DNA of 51,277 bases, from IMG/VR virus record IMGVR_UViG_2851955134_000001; one strand, given 5' to 3'. The notes under the pieces are model-generated. The model saw nothing but the letters and a program-made list of their open reading frames with translations, searched no databases and had not been told where the DNA came from. A program made the translations under genes and the position numbers. This DNA comes from a virus (taxonomy: Duplodnaviria; Heunggongvirae; Uroviricota; Caudoviricetes). The first letter of the stretch is position 1. The number at the start of each line of letters is the position of its first letter. Positions 2,459 through 51,277 of this stretch are shown piece by piece.

Positions 2459-3136
2459 ATGTCCATCATTTTTAATGGACACTATCGTATGAAACACCGG
2501 ACCTGGATCACTGAAGCTTTACGTCTTCACTTTGAAGAACATTTACCCCGGGTTGTGGCCGGGCGTCGCCTGGGTGTACCAAAATCAACAGTTTGCAGTA
2601 TGTTCGTGCGCTTTCGGAGAGCTGGCCTTTCGTGGCCTTTGCCCGCAGGCATGTCGGAGCAGGAACTTGATGCCTGCCTTTACGGACAATTTTCCACGGT
2701 ACCAGTCGTACGTCCTGAAAGCACCGTTATATCCGAAGCCCCCGTGGTAAAAAAACGTCCCCGGCGGCCCAACTTCCCTTATGAGTTTAAAATCGCCTTA
2801 GTGGAACAGTCACTGCAGCCCGGAGCCTGTGTGGCGCAGATCGCCCGGGAAAACGGAATCAACGATAACCTGCTCTTCAACTGGCGCCATCAATACCGGA
2901 AAGGTGGCCTGCTGCCTTCCGGAAAAAATATGCCGGCACTGCTTCCCGTGACGTTAACGCCGGAGCCGGATAATAAAATCCCGGCTCCGGCACAGGAACC
3001 AGAGCAGATAAATACACCGTCCGACAGTCTGTGTTGTGAGCTGGTTCTGCCGGCCGGAACTCTCAGGCTTAAAGGTAAACTGACGCCGGCGTTATTACAG
3101 ACACTTATCCGCGAAATAAAAGGGAGCAGCCACTGA
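2459..3136 (+). CDS. IS66-family accessory protein TnpA (start may be the internal ATG at 2489)
   Basis: First ORF of the IS; stop overlaps the tnpB start (ATGA at 3136). Confidence 0.65.
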   Translation: MSIIFNGHYRMKHRTWITEALRLHFEEHLPRVVAGRRLGVPKSTVCSMFVRFRRAGLSWPLPAGMSEQELDACLYGQFSTVPVVRPESTVISEAPVVKKRPRRPNFPYEFKIALVEQSLQPGACVAQIARENGINDNLLFNWRHQYRKGGLLPSGKNMPALLPVTLTPEPDNKIPAPAQEPEQINTPSDSLCCELVLPAGTLRLKGKLTPALLQTLIREIKGSSH

Positions 3137-3483
3137 TGATATCTCTCCCTGCAGGTTCGCGTATCTGGCTGGTTGCCGGTATCACCGATATGCGAAATGG
3201 CTTTAACGGCCTGGCCTCAAAAGTTCAGAACGTCCTGAAGGATGACCCGTTCTCCGGACACCTGTTCATCTTCCGCGGACGCCGGGGTGACCAGATAAAA
3301 GTGTTGTGGGCTGACAGTGACGGACTGTGCCTCTTCACCAAACGCCTGGAGCGGGGCCGCTTCGTCTGGCCGGTTACCCGTGACGGCAAGGTGCACCTTA
3401 CTCCGGCTCAGTTATCTATGCTTCTTGAAGGTATCAACTGGAAGCACCCGAAACGAACGGAACGCGCTGGCATTCGCATATAA
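3136..3483 (+). CDS. IS66-family TnpB (Orf2)
   Basis: 115 aa with sequence MISLPAGSRIWLVAGITDMRNGFNGL... characteristic of IS66 Orf2, as recalled. Confidence 0.85.
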   Translation: MISLPAGSRIWLVAGITDMRNGFNGLASKVQNVLKDDPFSGHLFIFRGRRGDQIKVLWADSDGLCLFTKRLERGRFVWPVTRDGKVHLTPAQLSMLLEGINWKHPKRTERAGIRI

Positions 3484-3502
3484 CCCGTTGTAAAGTGAGG
3501 AT

Positions 3503-5074
3503 ATGGACACCTCACTTGCTCATGAGAATGCCCGCCTGCGGGCACTGTTGCAGACGCAACAGGACACCATCCGCCAGATGGCGAAATACAACCGCCTGCT
3601 CTCACAGCGGGTGGCGGCTTATGCTTCCGAAATCAACCGGCTGAAGGCGCTGGTTGCGAAACTGCAACGTATGCAGTTCGGTAAAAGCTCAGAAAAACTT
3701 CGTGCAAAAACCGAACGGCAGATACAGGAAGCACAGGAGCGAATCAGCGCACTTCAGGAAGAAATGGCGGAAACGCTGGGTGAGCAATATGACCCGGTAC
3801 TGCCATCCGCCCTGCGCCAGTCTTCAGCCCGTAAACCGTTACCGGCCTCACTTCCCCGTGAAACCCGGGTTATCCGGCCGGAAGAGGAATGCTGTCCTGC
3901 CTGTGGTGGTGAACTCAGTTCTCTGGGATGTGATGTGTCAGAGCAACTGGAGCTTATCAGCAGCGCCTTTAAGGTTATCGAAACACAACGTCCGAAACTG
4001 GCCTGTTGCCGGTGCGACCATATCGTGCAGGCACCGGTGCCTTCAAAACCCATTGCACGCAGTTATGCCGGAGCGGGGCTCCTGGCCCATGTCGTCACCG
4101 GAAAATATGCAGACCATCTGCCGTTATACCGCCAGTCAGAGATATACCGCCGTCAGGGTGTGGAGCTGAGCCGTGCCACACTGGGGCGCTGGACTGGTGC
4201 CGTTGCTGAACTACTGGAGCCGCTGTATGACGTCCTGCGCCAGTATGTGCTGATGCCCGGTAAAGTCCATGCTGATGATATCCCCGTCCCGGTCCAGGAG
4301 CCGGGCAGCGGTAAAACCCGGACAGCCCGGCTGTGGGTCTACGTCCGTGATGACCGTAACGCCGGTTCACAGATGCCCCCGGCGGTCTGGTTCGCGTACA
4401 GTCCGGACCGGAAAGGTATCCATCCACAAAATCACCTGGCCGGTTACAGCGGTGTGCTTCAGGCCGATGCTTACGGTGGTTACCGGGCGTTATACGAATC
4501 CGGCAGAATAACGGAAGCCGCGTGTATGGCTCATGCCCGGAGAAAAATCCACGATGTGCATGCAAGAGCGCCCACCGACATCACCACGGAAGCCCTGCAG
4601 CGTATCGGTGAACTGTATGCCATCGAGGCAGAGGTCCGGGGCTGTTCAGCAGAACAGCGTCTGGCGGCAAGAAAAACCAGAGCCGCGCCACTGATGCAGT
4701 CACTGTATGACTGGATACAGCAACAGATGAAAACACTGTCGCGTCACTCAGATACGGCAAAAGCGTTCGCATACCTGCTGAAACAGTGGGATGCACTGAA
4801 CGTGTACTGCAGTAATGGCTGGGTGGAAATCGACAACAACATCGCAGAGAACGCCTTACGGGGAGTGGCCGTAGGCCGGAAAAACTGGCTCTTCGCGGGT
4901 TCCGACAGCGGTGGCGAACATGCGGCGGTGTTGTACTCGCTGATCGGCACATGCCGTCTGAACAATGTGGAGCCAGAAAAATGGCTGCGTTACGTTATTG
5001 AGCATATTCAGGACTGGCCGGCAAACCGGGTACGCGATCTGTTGCCCTGGAAAGTTGATCTGAGCTCTCAGTAA
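3503..5074 (+). CDS. IS66-family transposase (TnpC)
   Basis: 523 aa; N-terminal leucine-zipper-like region, CxxC zinc motif and C-terminal region typical of IS66 transposases. Confidence 0.9.
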
Positions 5075-5107
5075 ATATCAATACGGTTCTGACGAGCCGC
5101 TTACTGA

Positions 5108-5353
5108 TTACTTCACGCACGAAACTTTCGTAAACATATCTTCACTCACCCACTGACCATAAAATCTCGGAGCTGATACTTTATACACAGTGCCGCTTTT
5201 CGTTTCTATTTTCCCTGTAAGATCTACCGTATAAGCTCGCTGTAAAACCCCGGGACTCAGCACACCGGTGCACCGGACTCTCTCCGTAACGGAACTGTAC
5301 CCCGCGCAACCTGATACAAGAAACAGCAAAAAAGTGCAGACGATTATTTTCAT
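5108..5353 (-). CDS. small lipoprotein downstream of tail genes; possibly Cor-like superinfection exclusion protein
   Basis: Signal peptide with lipobox LVSGC; 81 aa; the position after the J/tail region matches where cor sits in phi80/HK022-type phages. Confidence 0.45.
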   Translation of the reverse strand: MKIIVCTFLLFLVSGCAGYSSVTERVRCTGVLSPGVLQRAYTVDLTGKIETKSGTVYKVSAPRFYGQWVSEDMFTKVSCVK

Positions 5354-5374
5354 TACATGCCCTCAACATAACTA

Positions 5375-6037
5375 TCAGTACGCATCATAAATTTCTGCAT
5401 TTATGTAATAACAGAGGTTATTAACAACACCTGAATTATCATTGGGCGCCGCTACGTTATCTTCAGCAAAAGTTGACTGACGCCATAACTGTGAGTTTCT
5501 GGCATTAAAACTGGCGGTATACCAGTAATAACTCTCCCCTTCCTGAACTGTCGTCCACTGGGTACACCCCGGCATTACGGCCACATCATGTCCCACACTG
5601 ATCGGTACATCCTTTTCCCATATTCGCGTCATTTTTACTTCCAGTGGCAGCATTTCCGTGTTCCAGACCACCCTGCCATGACTGTCGCACAACTGTATTC
5701 CCCATTGCGGCCATACATTCACCATGTTGGCAAAAACATAAACAACATATGTGCTGTCCTGTTCCATGCCCGGCTCCTGCCCTGTACCAGCGCTGAAAAT
5801 GTCATACTGCCAGGTACCGTTAAGCTGAACCATTTCACCATGGAAGGACTGATTACCGCTTATCTGTTTAATAAAAATCACGCAACGATAATTCGTCGGC
5901 ACCCCGGTGTCGATAAACTGCATCACCGCATCACGCGCACTCAGTGTGAAATGAAAACGGCGCACAAGGTTCAGTGGCGGCGCAACAGGTGATATCCATT
6001 CTCTCCCCCGCTCATCAGTTAATTTAAGTGCAAACAT
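5375..6037 (-). CDS. hypothetical phage protein in the tail tip region
   Basis: ATG at 6037 with AAGGGGGA RBS; 220 aa; no recognisable motif. Confidence 0.5.
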   Translation of the reverse strand: MFALKLTDERGREWISPVAPPLNLVRRFHFTLSARDAVMQFIDTGVPTNYRCVIFIKQISGNQSFHGEMVQLNGTWQYDIFSAGTGQEPGMEQDSTYVVYVFANMVNVWPQWGIQLCDSHGRVVWNTEMLPLEVKMTRIWEKDVPISVGHDVAVMPGCTQWTTVQEGESYYWYTASFNARNSQLWRQSTFAEDNVAAPNDNSGVVNNLCYYINAEIYDAY

Positions 6038-46953: not shown

Positions 46954-47157
46954 ATGAGCAGCTTATTTTTAACCGAAGATGAATTGCTAATATTAACGGG
47001 CTGCAAATATGCAAGCCACCAGCGAAAATGGTTAATGGAAAACGGGCTTCCGTTCTATACCAATCGTAGTGGCAAACCGATTGTCAGCCGGGATCTATTT
47101 ACCTGCAATAAAACTTTACCACCACGCGAGGTAGAGCCGAATTTTGGTGCGATCTGA
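46954..47157 (+). CDS. excisionase-like protein
   Basis: 67 aa; stop overlaps the int start (TGATG); immediately upstream of int. Confidence 0.55.
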   Translation: MSSLFLTEDELLILTGCKYASHQRKWLMENGLPFYTNRSGKPIVSRDLFTCNKTLPPREVEPNFGAI

Positions 47158-48182
47158 TGGGAAGACGAAGGAAAAATCCTGAACACGAAAAATTACCTCC
47201 AAATGTATACCCAAATAAATATAGTTATGTATGGAAACCAACATCCAGAGAATCTGTAACACTAACCGCCATCAAGGATGGTTTAGCTGCTTTATGGAAA
47301 AAGTATGAGGAAACTGTAAATAATCGCGATCGTGCAATGACATTCGGTCGCTTGTGGGAAAAATTCCTCGCCAGCGCCTGTTACAGTGACCTTAGTCCAA
47401 GAACACAAAAAGATTATCTGCAACATCAAAAAAAGTTGCTTGCCGTATTCGGTAAGGTACCAGCGGATTCCATAAAACCAGAACACATCCGTCGATACAT
47501 GGACAAAAGAGGGGAACAGAGTAAAACGCAAGCCAACCATGAAAAAAGCAGTATGTCCCGTGTTTACAGTTGGGGGTATGAGCGAGGGTACGTGAAGGCT
47601 AACCCATGTGCAGGTGTAAGTAAATTCAAGGCCAAAAACCGCGAACGATATGTAACCGACAAAGAATACCAGGCAGTATTAAGCGTGGCACCCCTTCCTG
47701 TTTTTATCGCAATGGAAATTGCCTATCTGTGTGCAGCGAGGGTTTCCGATGTGTTATCGCTGAAATGGGAGCAGATTGGAAACGACGGGATCTTTATCCA
47801 GCAAGGGAAAACAGGGAAAAAACAGATAAAAGCATGGAGTCCACGATTACAGGCAGCGGTCGAAAAAGCAAAACAGTTACCAAAATCCGCCTATGTGATC
47901 AGCAATCAATACGGCAACCGATATATGTACAAAGGCTTTAACGAAATGTGGGTAGAAGCAAGAAATCGCGCAGGCAAAGTTTCAGGTATTTTAACCGACT
48001 TCACCTTTCATGATCTGAAGGCGAAAGGAATTTCAGACTATGAAGGAAGCAGCCGGGATAAGCAACTTTTCTCTGGTCACAAAACCGAAGGGCAAGTGCT
48101 AATCTATGACCGGAAGGTTAAAGTTTCACCAACACTTGATGTCCCGTTACCTGAAAATATTCCAAGAAAATATTCCAAGTAA
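47157..48182 (+). CDS. tyrosine integrase (lambda Int-like)
   Basis: N-terminus MGRRRKNPEHEKLPPNVY like lambda Int MGRRRSHERRDLPPNLY; C-terminal ...FHDLKAKG... and LIYDRK Tyr region; adjacent to a tRNA. Confidence 0.85.
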   Translation: MGRRRKNPEHEKLPPNVYPNKYSYVWKPTSRESVTLTAIKDGLAALWKKYEETVNNRDRAMTFGRLWEKFLASACYSDLSPRTQKDYLQHQKKLLAVFGKVPADSIKPEHIRRYMDKRGEQSKTQANHEKSSMSRVYSWGYERGYVKANPCAGVSKFKAKNRERYVTDKEYQAVLSVAPLPVFIAMEIAYLCAARVSDVLSLKWEQIGNDGIFIQQGKTGKKQIKAWSPRLQAAVEKAKQLPKSAYVISNQYGNRYMYKGFNEMWVEARNRAGKVSGILTDFTFHDLKAKGISDYEGSSRDKQLFSGHKTEGQVLIYDRKVKVSPTLDVPLPENIPRKYSK

Positions 48183-48234
48183 TTCCAAGTGTGATTTTTG
48201 TCACTGACTTAATGATGTATAAGTGATTGAATTT

Positions 48235-48324
48235 TGGCGGAGAGAGGGGGATTTGAACCCCCGGTGGAGTTGCCCCCACTCCGGTTTTCGAGACCGGTCC
48301 GTTCAGCCGCTCCGGCATCTCTCC
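48235..48324 (-). tRNA. serU: tRNA-Ser (anticodon CGA)
   Basis: Reverse complement reads GGAGAGATGCCGGAGCGGCTGAACGGACCGGTCTCGAAAACCGG...GGTTCAAATCCCCCTCTCTCCGCCA with long variable arm and CGA anticodon; K-12 serU neighbours mtfA. Confidence 0.9.
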
Positions 48325-48417: not shown

Positions 48418-49215
48418 ATGATTAAGTGGCCCTGGAAAGTACAAGAATCAGCACATCAAACTGCCCTTCCCTGGCAGGAAGCACTATCGATCCCCCTTTT
48501 AACGTGTCTGACGGAACAGGAACAAAGCAAATTAGTCACTCTTGCCGAACGTTTTTTACAGCAAAAACGGCTTGTTCCTTTACAGGGCTTTGAGCTGAAT
48601 TCATTAAGAAGCTGCCGGATAGCACTTCTATTTTGCCTGCCCGTTCTGGAGTTAGGACTGGAATGGCTGGATGGTTTTCATGAAGTCTTAATTTATCCTG
48701 CGCCATTTGTGGTCGATGATGAATGGGAAGACGATATCGGTCTGGTGCATAACCAACGTATTGTTCAGTCAGGTCAGAGCTGGCAGCAAGGGCCTATCGT
48801 TTTGAACTGGTTGGATATACAAGATTCTTTTGATGCTTCTGGTTTTAACCTGATTATTCATGAAGTCGCTCATAAGCTGGACACCCGTAACGGCGATCGC
48901 GCCAGCGGAGTTCCCTTTATTCCGTTGCGTGAGGTTGCTGGCTGGGAACACGATCTTCATGCTGCAATGAACAACATTCAGGAAGAAATCGAATTGGTTG
49001 GCGAGAATGCGGCGAGCATCGATGCTTATGCTGCCAGTGATCCTGCTGAATGTTTTGCCGTACTTTCTGAATATTTCTTTAGCGCCCCAGAACTTTTTGC
49101 TCCTCGTTTCCCTTCATTGTGGCAACGTTTCTGCCAATTTTATCAACAAGATCCTTTGCAGAGACTGCATCACGCTAATGATACAGACTCGTTTTCGGCG
49201 ACGAATGTTCATTAA
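48418..49215 (+). CDS. mtfA: Mlc titration factor A
   Basis: [23 protein letters not shown]... recognised as E. coli MtfA (YeeI); HEVAH zinc-peptidase motif. Confidence 0.9.
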
Positions 49216-49315: not shown

Positions 49316-49391
49316 TCCTCTGTAGTTCAGTCGGTAGAACGGCGGACTGTTAATCCGTATGTCACTGGTTCGAGTCCAGTCAGAGGAGCCA
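49316..49391 (+). tRNA. asnT: tRNA-Asn (anticodon GTT)
   Basis: TCCTCTGTAGTTCAGTCGGTAGAACGGCGGACTGTTAATCCGT...GGTTCGAGTCCAGTCAGAGGAGCCA, 76 nt. Confidence 0.9.
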
Positions 49392-49537
49392 ATTTTCTGT
49401 TTTCTTGCATCCTTGCGAATCTTTATCTGATGTTGATTCAACAGGTTAGTGTGAAAACTCTTCTCGGTGCATTTTGATTTTACCCTACGCATCGGGAAAA
49501 ATTGGTGGTCAAATCTGGGGTCAGGTTAGTTCGATAA

Positions 49538-50524
49538 TGGAGTGACCCCCATATATCCCTTACCGACGCAAAAATCCGCACCCTCAAGCCTTCTGATAAA
49601 CCCTTTAAAGTCTCCGATTCTCACAGTCTGTATCTGCGGGTCAAGCCGGGTGGCTCCCGCCACTGGTATCTCAAATACCGTATTAGCGGTAAAGAATCCC
49701 GCATTGCGCTGGGTGCCTATCCAGCCATCTCCCTGTCTGATGCGCGACAGCAACGTGAAGGTATCCGTAAAATGCTGGCGCTGAATATCAACCCGGTACA
49801 GCAGCGGGCTGCTGTACGTGGCTCACGAACACCGGAGAAAGTTTTTAAAAACGTGGCGCTGGCGTGGCATAAAAGTAACAGGAAATGGTCGCAGAACACC
49901 GCCGACCGTCTGCTTGCCAGCCTGAACAATCACATCTTTCCGGTCATCGGGAACCTACCTGTATCAGAACTTAAACCCCGTCATTTCATTGACCTGCAGA
50001 AAGGGATCGAGGAAAAAGGTCTGCTGGAGGTTGCGTCCCGCACACGGCAGCACCTGAGTAACATAATACGCCATGCGGTCCATCAGGAGTTAATCGATAC
50101 GAACCCTGCAGCAAACCTTGGCGGCGTGACCACACCTCCTGTCAGACGGCACTATCCTGCCCTGCCGCTGGAGCGGCTGCCTGAACTGCTTGAACGTATT
50201 GGGGCATATCATCAGGGCCGTGAACTGACCCGGCATGCCGTTCTGCTGATGCTGCATGTGTTCATTCGCTCCAGTGAACTGCGTTTCGCCCGCTGGTCAG
50301 AGATTGATTTCACAAACCGAGTCTGGACGATACCCGCGACGCGAGAACCCATTATTGGCGTGCATTATTCCGGCCGCGGGGCAAAAATGCGAATGCCGCA
50401 TATCGTCCCCCTCTCAGAACAGTCCATCGCCATTCTGAAACAGATTAAGGATATCACCGGTAATAATGAACTGATCTTCCCCGGCGACCATAACCCGTAT
50501 AAGCCAATGTGTGAAAACACGGTC
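49538..50524 (+). pseudogene. P4-type integrase remnant beside tRNA-Asn: no canonical start codon and 3' end truncated by IS1
   Basis: Frame encodes ...SLTDAKIRTLKPSDKPFKVSDSHSLYLRVKPGGSRHWYLKYRISGK... (P4-integrase-like N-terminus); ATA where the ATG is expected (49553); ORF runs into the IS1 left end at 50525. Confidence 0.65.
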
Positions 50525-50579
50525 GGTGATGCTGCCAACTTACTGATTTAGTGTATGATGGTGTTTTTGAGGTGCTCCA

Positions 50580-50855
50580 GTGGCTTCCATTTCCATCAGA
50601 TGTCCTTCCTGCTCCGCTACTGAAGGCGTGGTGCGTAACGGCAAAAGCACTGCCGGACATCAGCGCTATCTCTGCTCTCACTGCCGTAAAACATGGCAAC
50701 TGCAGTTCACTTACACCGCTTCTCAACCCGGTACGCACCAGAAAATCATTGATATGGCCATGAATGGCGTTGGATGCCGGGCAACAGCCCGCATTATGGG
50801 CATTGGCCTCAACACGATTTTACGTCACTTAAAAAACTCAGGCCGCAGTCGGTAA
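50580..50855 (+). CDS. insA: IS1 InsA
   Basis: 91 aa [23 protein letters not shown]... Confidence 0.9.
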
Positions 50856-51277
50856 CCTCGCGCATACAGCCGGGCAGTGACGTCATCGTCTGCGCGGAAA
50901 TGGACGAACAGTGGGGCTATGTCGGGGCTAAATCGCGCCAGCGCTGGCTGTTTTACGCGTATGACAGGCTCCGGAAGACGGTTGTTGCGCACGTATTCGG
51001 TGAACGCACTATGGCGACGCTGGGGCGTCTTATGAGCCTGCTGTCACCCTTTGACGTGGTGATATGGATGACGGATGGCTGGCCGCTGTATGAATCCCGC
51101 CTGAAGGGAAAGCTGCACGTAATCAGCAAGCGATATACGCAGCGAATTGAGCGGCATAACCTGAATCTGAGGCAGCACCTGGCACGGCTGGGACGGAAGT
51201 CGCTGTCGTTCTCAAAATCGGTGGAGCTGCATGACAAAGTCATCGGGCATTATCTGAACATAAAACACTATCAATAA
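50774..51277 (+). CDS. insB: IS1 InsB (expressed as InsAB' via -1 frameshift at the A6C motif)
   Basis: 167-aa ORF overlapping insA; ttaaaaaac slippery run near 50827. Confidence 0.9.

What the first reader, a model, noticed from the sequence alone, without database searches (positions are those of the whole stretch)
49538..50524. tRNA-Asn-associated P4-type integrase inactivated twice (start codon ATG to ATA, and IS1 truncation)
The reading frame encodes a P4-integrase-like N-terminus but opens after a stop without any ATG/GTG/TTG; ATA sits where the initiator is expected. The 3' end runs into the IS1 left inverted repeat, removing the catalytic C-terminus. This marks the decayed edge of another island at an asn tRNA, a known island hotspot.
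Basis: partly seen in the sequence, partly recalled or inferred. Interest (0 to 1): 0.45.

Follow-up and report, generated by a model that had tools for sequence, protein, structure and literature searches.

The report
Dead yersiniabactin-island integrase stub at asnT
This is the leftover first three-quarters of the integrase gene of the E. coli yersiniabactin "high-pathogenicity island", cut off by an IS1 element that in matching complete genomes has also deleted the whole island. It is an ordinary scar that public annotations already mark as a pseudogene.

Summary
tRNA-Asn (asnT, 49316-49391) is followed by a P4-type integrase frame. It opens after a TAA, has ATA (49553-49555) exactly where intact homologues start, and stops at 50524 against the IS1 left inverted repeat (50525). 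It keeps 324 of 420 codons and has lost the C-terminal catalytic motifs.

The gene is intB of the yersiniabactin high-pathogenicity island (HPI). At least 60 complete E. coli genomes carry the identical int'|IS1 junction, so it is not an assembly artefact. In every one I inspected, IS1 is followed by shiA or by a 5'-truncated amn, not by HPI: about 34-36 kb is gone and there is no 9-bp target duplication.

The reading "inactivated twice" needs a caveat. ATA is a common HPI allele (971 complete genomes, against 1288 with ATG). It also occurs in full-length integrase genes that RefSeq annotates as intact. It therefore predates the IS1 event, and it probably cuts translation sharply rather than abolishing it.

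Within the common E. coli HPI type, the integrase shows 21 nonsynonymous against 3 synonymous polymorphic codons. That indicates relaxed constraint.

Verdict: a known kind of decay, already annotated, low interest.

The parts
48235..48324 (-). tRNA-Ser (CGA), serU. This is context. The sequence to its left (1 to about 48218) is a lambdoid prophage integrated at this tRNA gene.
   Evidence: ARAGORN. Collinearity with a prophage-free genome breaks at 48219. Prophage annotation comes from the related genome TUM1886.
48418..49215 (+). mtfA (yeeI). This backbone gene identifies the following asn tRNA gene as asnT.
   Evidence: RefSeq annotation of loci identical in this stretch. The ORF is listed.
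49316..49391 (+). tRNA-Asn (GTT) = asnT, the HPI attachment site. The 17-bp core CCAGTCAGAGGAGCCAA lies at 49376-49392 and occurs only once in the window.
   Evidence: ARAGORN. Pattern search: 1 match. asnT as the HPI site: PMC2606025.
49535..49552 (+). Leader just upstream of the integrase: in-frame TAA at 49535-49537 and GGAG Shine-Dalgarno at 49539-49542. The three-codon mini-ORF ATG GAG TGA (49537-49545) overlaps them.
   Evidence: Read directly from the sequence. The leader is conserved in all compared loci.
49553..49555 (+). ATA at the position of the integrase start codon. This is a common allele; the ancestral state is ATG.
   Evidence: DNA and protein alignments. Allele counts: 971 ATA against 1288 ATG genomes.
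49553..50524 (+). HPI integrase (intB) remnant, codons 1-324 of 420.
- Arm-type DNA-binding domain: 49559-49813.
- Central domain: 49844-50125.
- N-terminal part of the catalytic domain: 50222-50524. It includes the putative Arg I (R239, 50267-50269).
- Missing: the H342-x-x-R345 motif, H369 and the putative nucleophile Y379.
   Evidence: Pfam. Alignment with full-length proteins. Motif positions; the catalytic roles are inferred from the tyrosine-recombinase consensus. RefSeq marks the identical sequence as a pseudogene missing its C-terminus.
50525..51277 (+). IS1, first 753 of 768 bp. The left inverted repeat starts at 50525. insA is at 50580-50855. The insB frame runs to the TAA at 51275-51277. 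The A6C frameshift motif lies near 50841.
   Evidence: Read from the sequence. The copy is 100% identical to the IS1 at the same site in M9682-C1 and TUM9803.

Best explanation
The segment is the non-functional stump of intB, the P4-family tyrosine integrase of the yersiniabactin high-pathogenicity island (HPI), at its usual E. coli site, asnT.

Proposed history:
1. The ancestor carried the common, already immobile E. coli HPI. Its integrase allele had ATA in place of the ATG start, a widespread variant that probably lowers translation about 30- to 1000-fold.
2. An IS1 element then produced a deletion. The mechanism was either intramolecular transposition from one IS1 end (a classic IS1 adjacent deletion) or recombination between two direct IS1 copies.
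3. The deletion removed integrase codons 325-420, the whole ybt/irp/fyuA cluster and the adjacent yeeJ-yeeL backbone, about 34 kb. It left int'-IS1-shiA.
4. In a sublineage, a second deletion from the same IS1 ran into amn.

The stump has no recombinase activity because the HxxR motif, the second His and the Tyr nucleophile are gone. It is a scar and a lineage marker.

Shown: the gene's identity, the truncation point, the allele frequencies, the junctions in complete genomes and the absence of a target duplication.
Inferred: the order of events, the deletion mechanism, and which junction type (shiA or amn) lies beyond this window.
For: Identity:
- Full-length homologues 98-100% identical over the 324 codons lie between asnT and ybtS in HPI-positive genomes.
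- Strain 2017C-4173W12 has the same allele (0 differences in 324 codons) with an intact HPI.
- Family: three Pfam domains; 44% identity to P4 Int; the N-terminal domain nearly matches the solved 88-residue CP4-like integrase chain 3JTZ.

Truncation: the Pfam catalytic profile is covered only to position 110 of 172.

Junction:
- It is 100% identical in at least 60 complete genomes and at most 72.
- Beyond IS1 lies either a point 45 bp upstream of shiA (TUM9803, ABW_A19, LWY24) or amn lacking its first 30 codons (M9682-C1; 17 genomes).
- Measured against the intact arrangement, 34,254 or 35,807 bp are missing.
- The flanks AACACGGTC and CCTTTTCCA or GCCATTGGC are not a duplication. A genuine simple IS1 insertion at the integrase 3' end in Ecol_745 has the 9-bp duplication GTTTATCCC and keeps HPI.
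- Strain 32-4 shows an independent int'-IS1-'shiA deletion with different end points.

ATA allele.

Relaxed constraint: 21 nonsynonymous against 3 synonymous polymorphic codons within the common type, compared with 7 against 25 fixed differences to a divergent allele; Fisher p = 1.8e-6.

Literature: E. coli HPI is fixed at asnT because its right direct repeat is deleted (PMC2606025). intB truncations are known (PMC2801613).
Against: - The window ends inside IS1, so for this particular genome the sequence beyond IS1 was not seen. That the island is deleted here is an extrapolation from genomes sharing the junction.
- The deletion mechanism (adjacent deletion or IS1-IS1 recombination) cannot be told apart from the end product.
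- Catalytic residues were assigned from motifs and Pfam profile coverage, not from a structure-based alignment.
- The polymorphism analysis uses only 11 in-group sequences picked from BLAST rankings.
Confidence: 0.92

Rival explanations
1. A simple IS1 insertion: in this genome the remainder of the integrase and a complete HPI continue just beyond the window, so the island is interrupted, not lost.
For: The window stops 15 nt before the IS1 end, so the right flank is unseen. Simple IS1 insertions in this gene with HPI retained do exist, as in Ecol_745.
Against: The IS1|shiA and IS1|amn lists name 19 strains that also carry the identical left junction. I viewed the full int'-IS1-shiA/amn arrangement directly in four of them. 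None of the genomes inspected has HPI after this junction. The Ecol_745 insertion is at a different position.
Confidence: 0.04
2. The integrase-IS1 junction is an assembly artefact: a contig that collapsed or was mis-joined at a repeat.
For: The window ends within a multicopy IS element, a typical contig break point.
Against: The identical 54-nt junction is present in at least 60 independently finished genomes from many laboratories. The 1361-nt stretch spanning it is 100% identical in 29 listed genomes.
Confidence: 0.01
3. The stump is still expressed and used. A protein made from ATA, or from the internal ATG at 49772, would keep the arm-type and core DNA-binding domains. It could act as a DNA-binding regulator, or as a dominant-negative partner of related asn-tRNA island integrases such as that of the pks island.
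For: An open frame of 324 codons persists with a good GGAG. The upstream asn tRNA promoter is reported to drive HPI and pks integrase transcription (PMC8209727). AUA allows low-level initiation. ATA alleles keep a full-length open frame in 8 of 9 sampled genomes.
Against: There is no sign of purifying selection: 21 nonsynonymous against 3 synonymous polymorphic codons, including L-to-P, R-to-P and a nonsense change. The window lineage itself carries 5 derived nonsynonymous and 0 synonymous changes. No expression data exist.
Confidence: 0.03

Closest known systems
IntB, the integrase of the Yersinia/E. coli high-pathogenicity island (HPI, yersiniabactin island) at asnT
   Same: Same locus (mtfA-asnT), same leader, and 98-100% amino-acid identity over codons 1-324 to full-length intB genes that lie next to ybtS.
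   Different: Lacks codons 325-420 and the whole island behind it. Carries the ATA start allele plus derived changes G25S, L149Q, M172I and R271H.
Phage P4 integrase family (arm-binding domain + central domain + tyrosine-recombinase catalytic domain, tRNA-gene targeting)
   Same: 44.2% identity to P4 Int over all 324 retained residues. Same three-domain order. Integration next to the 3' end of a tRNA gene.
   Different: Belongs to a genomic island, not a satellite phage. The catalytic domain is incomplete.
Other decayed intB alleles already described: the deletion of bp 124-470, interruption by ISSfl14 in ECOR72, and point nonsense or frameshift alleles
   Same: The same gene has been inactivated in other ways in an island that is already immobile (PMC2801613; PMC2606025). 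Examples seen here are L019 (frameshifted) and TUM1886 (stop at codon 95).
   Different: Here the lesion is an IS1-associated deletion that also removes HPI itself, so the strain is HPI-negative but keeps a trace of the island.
IS1-mediated adjacent deletions (classical behaviour of IS1)
   Same: A single IS1 is retained, one flank is shared between different deletion end points (shiA and amn), and there is no 9-bp target duplication across the element.
   Different: The mechanism is inferred from the end products only. Recombination between two direct IS1 copies would give the same structure.

Membership tests
P4-type (P4 Int family) tyrosine integrase | N-terminal arm-type DNA-binding domain (Pfam PF13356) followed by the phage-integrase central domain (PF22022) | tested here: met
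   PF13356 at residues 3-87, E 2.8e-23. PF22022 at residues 98-191, E 3.9e-23. The solved N-terminal domain chain 3JTZ aligns over residues 2-81, E 3.5e-45.
P4-type (P4 Int family) tyrosine integrase | Significant full-length sequence similarity to phage P4 Int | tested here: met
   tblastn against P4 (NC_001609, X51522): 44.2% identity, 100% of the 324 residues, E 3e-81.
P4-type (P4 Int family) tyrosine integrase | Complete tyrosine-recombinase catalytic domain with Arg, HxxR, His/Trp and the Tyr nucleophile | tested here: not met
   PF00589 is covered only at profile positions 22-110 of 172, against 22-170 in the full-length homologue. H342-x-x-R345, H369 and Y379 of the full-length protein lie beyond codon 324. 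The gene is by descent a member of the family but is not a functional one.
P4-type (P4 Int family) tyrosine integrase | Gene lies directly downstream of the 3' end of its target tRNA gene | tested here: met
   The tRNA-Asn gene ends at 49391 and the integrase begins at 49553 on the same strand.
E. coli HPI (yersiniabactin island) at asnT | Integrase adjacent to asnT (flanked by mtfA and serU) and orthologous to the intB that precedes ybtS | tested here: met
E. coli HPI (yersiniabactin island) at asnT | Presence of the ybt/irp/fyuA yersiniabactin gene cluster downstream of the integrase | not testable with these tools
   The window ends inside IS1. In the complete genomes with the identical junction that were inspected, the cluster is absent and IS1 abuts shiA or amn.
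IS1 | Terminal inverted repeat GGTGATGCTGCCAACTTACTGAT, insA and insB' frames with an A6C frameshift site, and 768 bp length | tested here: met
   Read from the sequence at 50525-51277. It is identical to the 768-bp IS1 copies annotated at the same site in L001 and L009. The last 15 bp lie outside the window.
IS1 | 9-bp target-site duplication flanking a simple insertion | tested here: not met
   In genomes sharing the junction, the flanks are AACACGGTC on one side and CCTTTTCCA or GCCATTGGC on the other. This fits a deletion or recombination product, not a simple insertion. The control Ecol_745 has the duplication GTTTATCCC.

The most novel reading that the evidence does not exclude
The ATA start codon may not be mere decay. 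It could be a selected attenuator of integrase expression in the fixed E. coli HPI. It sits on several allele backgrounds (D5/A55, D5/T55, S5/T55). The most parsimonious history of the sampled alleles has one ATG-to-ATA change followed by a reversion to ATG in the ST131-type allele. That would imply selection acting in both directions on integrase translation, for example through cross-talk with the related pks-island integrase at the neighbouring asn tRNA genes.
Probability: 0.07. Interest if true: 0.4.

Novelty: already known. Interest (0 to 1): 0.12.

Why it matters
Its significance is small.
- It shows that this strain's lineage once carried the yersiniabactin island and lost it through IS1. 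At least 60 complete genomes share the junction; those named in the records include O6:H16, O25:H16 and O25:NM strains and others such as TW10598, B2C and ETEC6.
- At least two independent IS1-associated losses left an integrase stub. This qualifies an earlier statement, based on the ECOR collection, that HPI-negative strains show no trace of the island (PMC2606025).
- The int'|IS1 junction is a convenient lineage marker.
- ATA at the start of a gene that RefSeq calls intact in hundreds of genomes is a caution for anyone who treats those integrases as functional.

Tried and rejected
- Collinearity: I assumed the whole window was collinear with ETEC strain M9682-C1. It is not. Collinearity breaks at 48219 because the window carries a prophage at serU.
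- Catalytic residues: I searched solved structures with the C-terminal half of the full-length integrase to place the catalytic residues on a known structure. No meaningful hit appeared. The catalytic assignments therefore rest on Pfam profile coverage and motifs.
- Junction counts: a 120-nt and a 54-nt junction query gave counts inflated by joined or low-identity IS1 matches (72 and 123). I report only bounds: at least 60 exact, at most 72.
- NCBIfam gave only a sub-threshold domain model (NF007246, 161 bits against a cut-off of 434), which adds nothing beyond Pfam.
- Junction type: I compared IS1 copies to decide whether this genome is the shiA type or the amn type. The window's IS1 is identical to copies of both types, so it cannot be decided.
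- Literature searches found no paper describing the ATA allele or this specific IS1 deletion. The library does not cover subscription journals, so absence there is weak evidence.

Full report
**What is in the sequence**

ARAGORN places tRNA-Asn (GTT) at 49316-49391 on the + strand and tRNA-Ser (CGA) at 48235-48324 on the - strand. Between them lies mtfA (48418-49215), so the asn gene is asnT.

It has no ATG, GTG or TTG until the ATG at 49772. ATA sits at 49553-49555, ten bases after a GGAG (49539-49542). The frame runs to 50524. At 50525 the IS1 left inverted repeat GGTGATGCTGCCAACTTACTGAT begins.

The window ends at 51277. That is the stop codon of the insB frame and lies 15 nt before the end of the 768-bp element.

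**What the gene is**

The 324-residue translation matches three Pfam families:
- Arm-DNA-bind_3 at residues 3-87.
- Phage_int_M at residues 98-191.
- Phage_integrase, but only profile positions 22-110 of 172.

It is 44.2% identical to phage P4 Int over its whole length, E 3e-81. Its N-terminal domain is almost identical to the solved 88-residue chain 3JTZ, named CP4-like integrase. "P4-type integrase" is therefore correct.

A search of 5,426 complete E. coli genomes finds the region in 2,345 of them. Where the gene is full length it is 1263 nt (420 codons). It starts exactly at the position of the window's ATA and is followed by ybtS-ybtX-ybtQ-ybtP-ybtA-irp2-irp1-ybtU-ybtT-ybtE-fyuA. The gene is thus intB of the yersiniabactin high-pathogenicity island (HPI) at its usual site, asnT (PMC2606025).

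**The truncation**

The full-length protein covers Pfam Phage_integrase positions 22-170; the window copy stops at 110. The motifs H342-G-F-R345, H369 and Y379 of the full-length protein all lie after codon 324. From the tyrosine-recombinase consensus I take these to be box II and the nucleophile. That assignment is an inference, because a sequence search of solved structures with the C-terminal half found nothing usable. The stump cannot be an active recombinase.

**Is the junction real, and what lies beyond it?**

The 54-nt sequence across 50524/50525 is 100% identical in at least 60 complete genomes. A 120-nt junction query gives an upper bound of 72. This rules out an assembly artefact.

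Four of these genomes were inspected in full:
- TUM9803, ABW_A19 and LWY24: IS1 is followed by sequence that begins 45 bp upstream of shiA (type A).
- M9682-C1: IS1 is followed by amn lacking its first 30 codons (type B). Seventeen genomes have this type.

Strain 2017C-4173W12 has an integrase allele identical over all 324 codons and an intact HPI. Measured against it, type A lacks 34,254 bp and type B lacks 35,807 bp. The missing DNA is the end of the integrase, all of HPI, the yeeJ remnants and the yeeL-like glycosyltransferase; type B also lacks shiA and the 5' end of amn.

The sequences flanking IS1 (AACACGGTC on the left; CCTTTTCCA or GCCATTGGC on the right) are not a target duplication. 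A genuine simple IS1 insertion at the very end of the integrase in strain Ecol_745 has the 9-bp duplication GTTTATCCC and keeps HPI.

One left junction with two right junctions fits successive IS1-associated deletions from the right end of a resident IS1. Recombination between two direct IS1 copies would give the same product, so the mechanism is inferred, not shown. Strain 32-4 carries an independent event: integrase cut after nt 1007, then IS1, then shiA from nt 704, on an ATG allele. IS1 has therefore removed HPI at least twice and left an integrase stub each time.

The window's IS1 is identical to copies of both type A and type B. I cannot say which type this genome has.

**The ATA codon**

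The base difference is real. ST131-type, ICE-type (asnV) and a divergent allele have ATG. The window and many others have ATA.

To count alleles I used two 55-mers with the variable base at position 28. Every 28-base seed then has to include that base. The results:
- 971 genomes match the ATA version.
- 1288 genomes match the ATG version; a few of those are the paralogous pks-island integrase.

Six of six ATA genomes taken at even steps down the ranking have a full-length 1263-nt gene beside ybtS, annotated by RefSeq as intact. So do 2017C-4173W12 and ABU 83972. TUM1886 has ATA plus a nonsense codon at position 95.

ATA is therefore an old, widespread HPI allele that predates the IS1 event in this lineage. 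It is not a second hit on an already broken gene. In E. coli reporters, AUA gives about 0.02-3% of AUG initiation (bioRxiv 10.1101/063800). The allele is best described as strongly attenuating.

**Selection on the gene**

Thirteen full-length sequences were compared: eleven of the common E. coli type and two outgroups.
- Within the common type, 21 polymorphic codons are nonsynonymous and 3 are synonymous. The nonsynonymous changes include L-to-P, R-to-P and L-to-R.
- Fixed differences to the divergent allele of strain Ryan-0026 are 7 nonsynonymous and 25 synonymous. Fisher p = 1.8e-6.
- The 21:3 ratio is compatible with neutrality (expected nonsynonymous fraction 0.76, p = 0.24).

The window lineage carries five derived nonsynonymous changes (M1I, G25S, L149Q, M172I, R271H) and no synonymous change. 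This fits the literature. The common E. coli HPI has lost its right direct repeat and is fixed (PMC2606025), so its integrase has no remaining role and decays in several ways (PMC2801613). The sample is small and not random, so the numbers are indicative only.

**Comparison with what is known, and verdict**

Every element here is known:
- HPI at asnT.
- A P4-family IntB.
- Decay of intB.
- IS1-mediated deletions.

RefSeq already annotates the identical sequence as [quoted passage not shown].

First, the island behind the stub is entirely deleted in matching genomes, along with flanking backbone genes. Second, the ATA is a population-level allele, not a private lesion.

A minor point of interest concerns HPI-negative strains, which were reported to show no trace of HPI in the ECOR collection (PMC2606025). 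The genomes found here are HPI-negative yet keep a trace. I found no paper describing this deletion or the ATA allele, but the searchable library is incomplete.

I rate this as already known in kind, of low interest, and correctly observed.

Noticed in passing
window 1-48218: Nearly the whole window left of serU is a lambdoid prophage integrated at tRNA-Ser (CGA). It has tail, capsid, terminase, lysis, Q-antiterminator, replication, exonuclease and integrase genes. The integrase ORF at 47157-48182 is open here, but the corresponding gene is annotated as frameshifted in the related prophages of TUM1886 and TUM9803. The best complete-genome match covers only 82% of 26000-50524 at 99.2% identity.
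   Followed up: partly
window 49537-49545: A three-codon mini-ORF, ATG GAG TGA, overlaps the integrase Shine-Dalgarno GGAG and the in-frame TAA. It is conserved in all HPI and pks-island integrase leaders compared. Whether it affects integrase translation is unknown.
   Followed up: no
window 51275-51277 (window end): The window stops exactly at the insB stop codon, 15 nt before the IS1 right inverted repeat ends. This looks like a contig break in a repeat or a cut at a gene boundary.
   Followed up: no
L011 (LWY24) 5061-5828: The IS1 at the same int'|IS1|shiA junctions in LWY24 differs from the window's IS1 at 17 positions. All lie in the first 400 nt; the rest is identical. The copy is a mosaic, which suggests gene conversion between IS1 variants after the deletion.
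   Followed up: no
L022 (strain 32-4) 2589-4977; L023 (Ecol_745) 2589-4616: These are independent IS1 events in the same gene, with IS1 in the same orientation. One is a second deletion class (integrase nt 1007 | IS1 | shiA nt 704). The other is a simple insertion with a 9-bp duplication at integrase codon 420. The integrase region appears to be a repeated IS1 target.
   Followed up: partly
L001/L006 (M9682-C1), yodB region, locus 9239-9991 of L001: ETEC strain M9682-C1 has another IS1, 97.9% identical to the window's copy, splitting yodB (cytochrome b) about 2 kb upstream of serU. The window has no such copy; its prophage occupies that side.
   Followed up: no
phage record ON470583.1 (Escherichia phage vB_EcoS-689R5) 292-1263: A 36.7-kb record deposited as a phage encodes an integrase 100% identical to the 324 residues of this stub. 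It may be an HPI region or another asn-tRNA island deposited as a prophage.
   Followed up: no
L017 (GmF052), L003 (ABU 83972), L004/L020 (ST131 type), integrase codons 1, 5 and 55: ATA occurs on three allele backgrounds (D5/A55, D5/T55, S5/T55). ATG with S5/T55 is the ST131 type. One forward change plus one reversion to ATG needs fewer steps than three independent ATG-to-ATA changes. Recombination is not excluded.
   Followed up: partly
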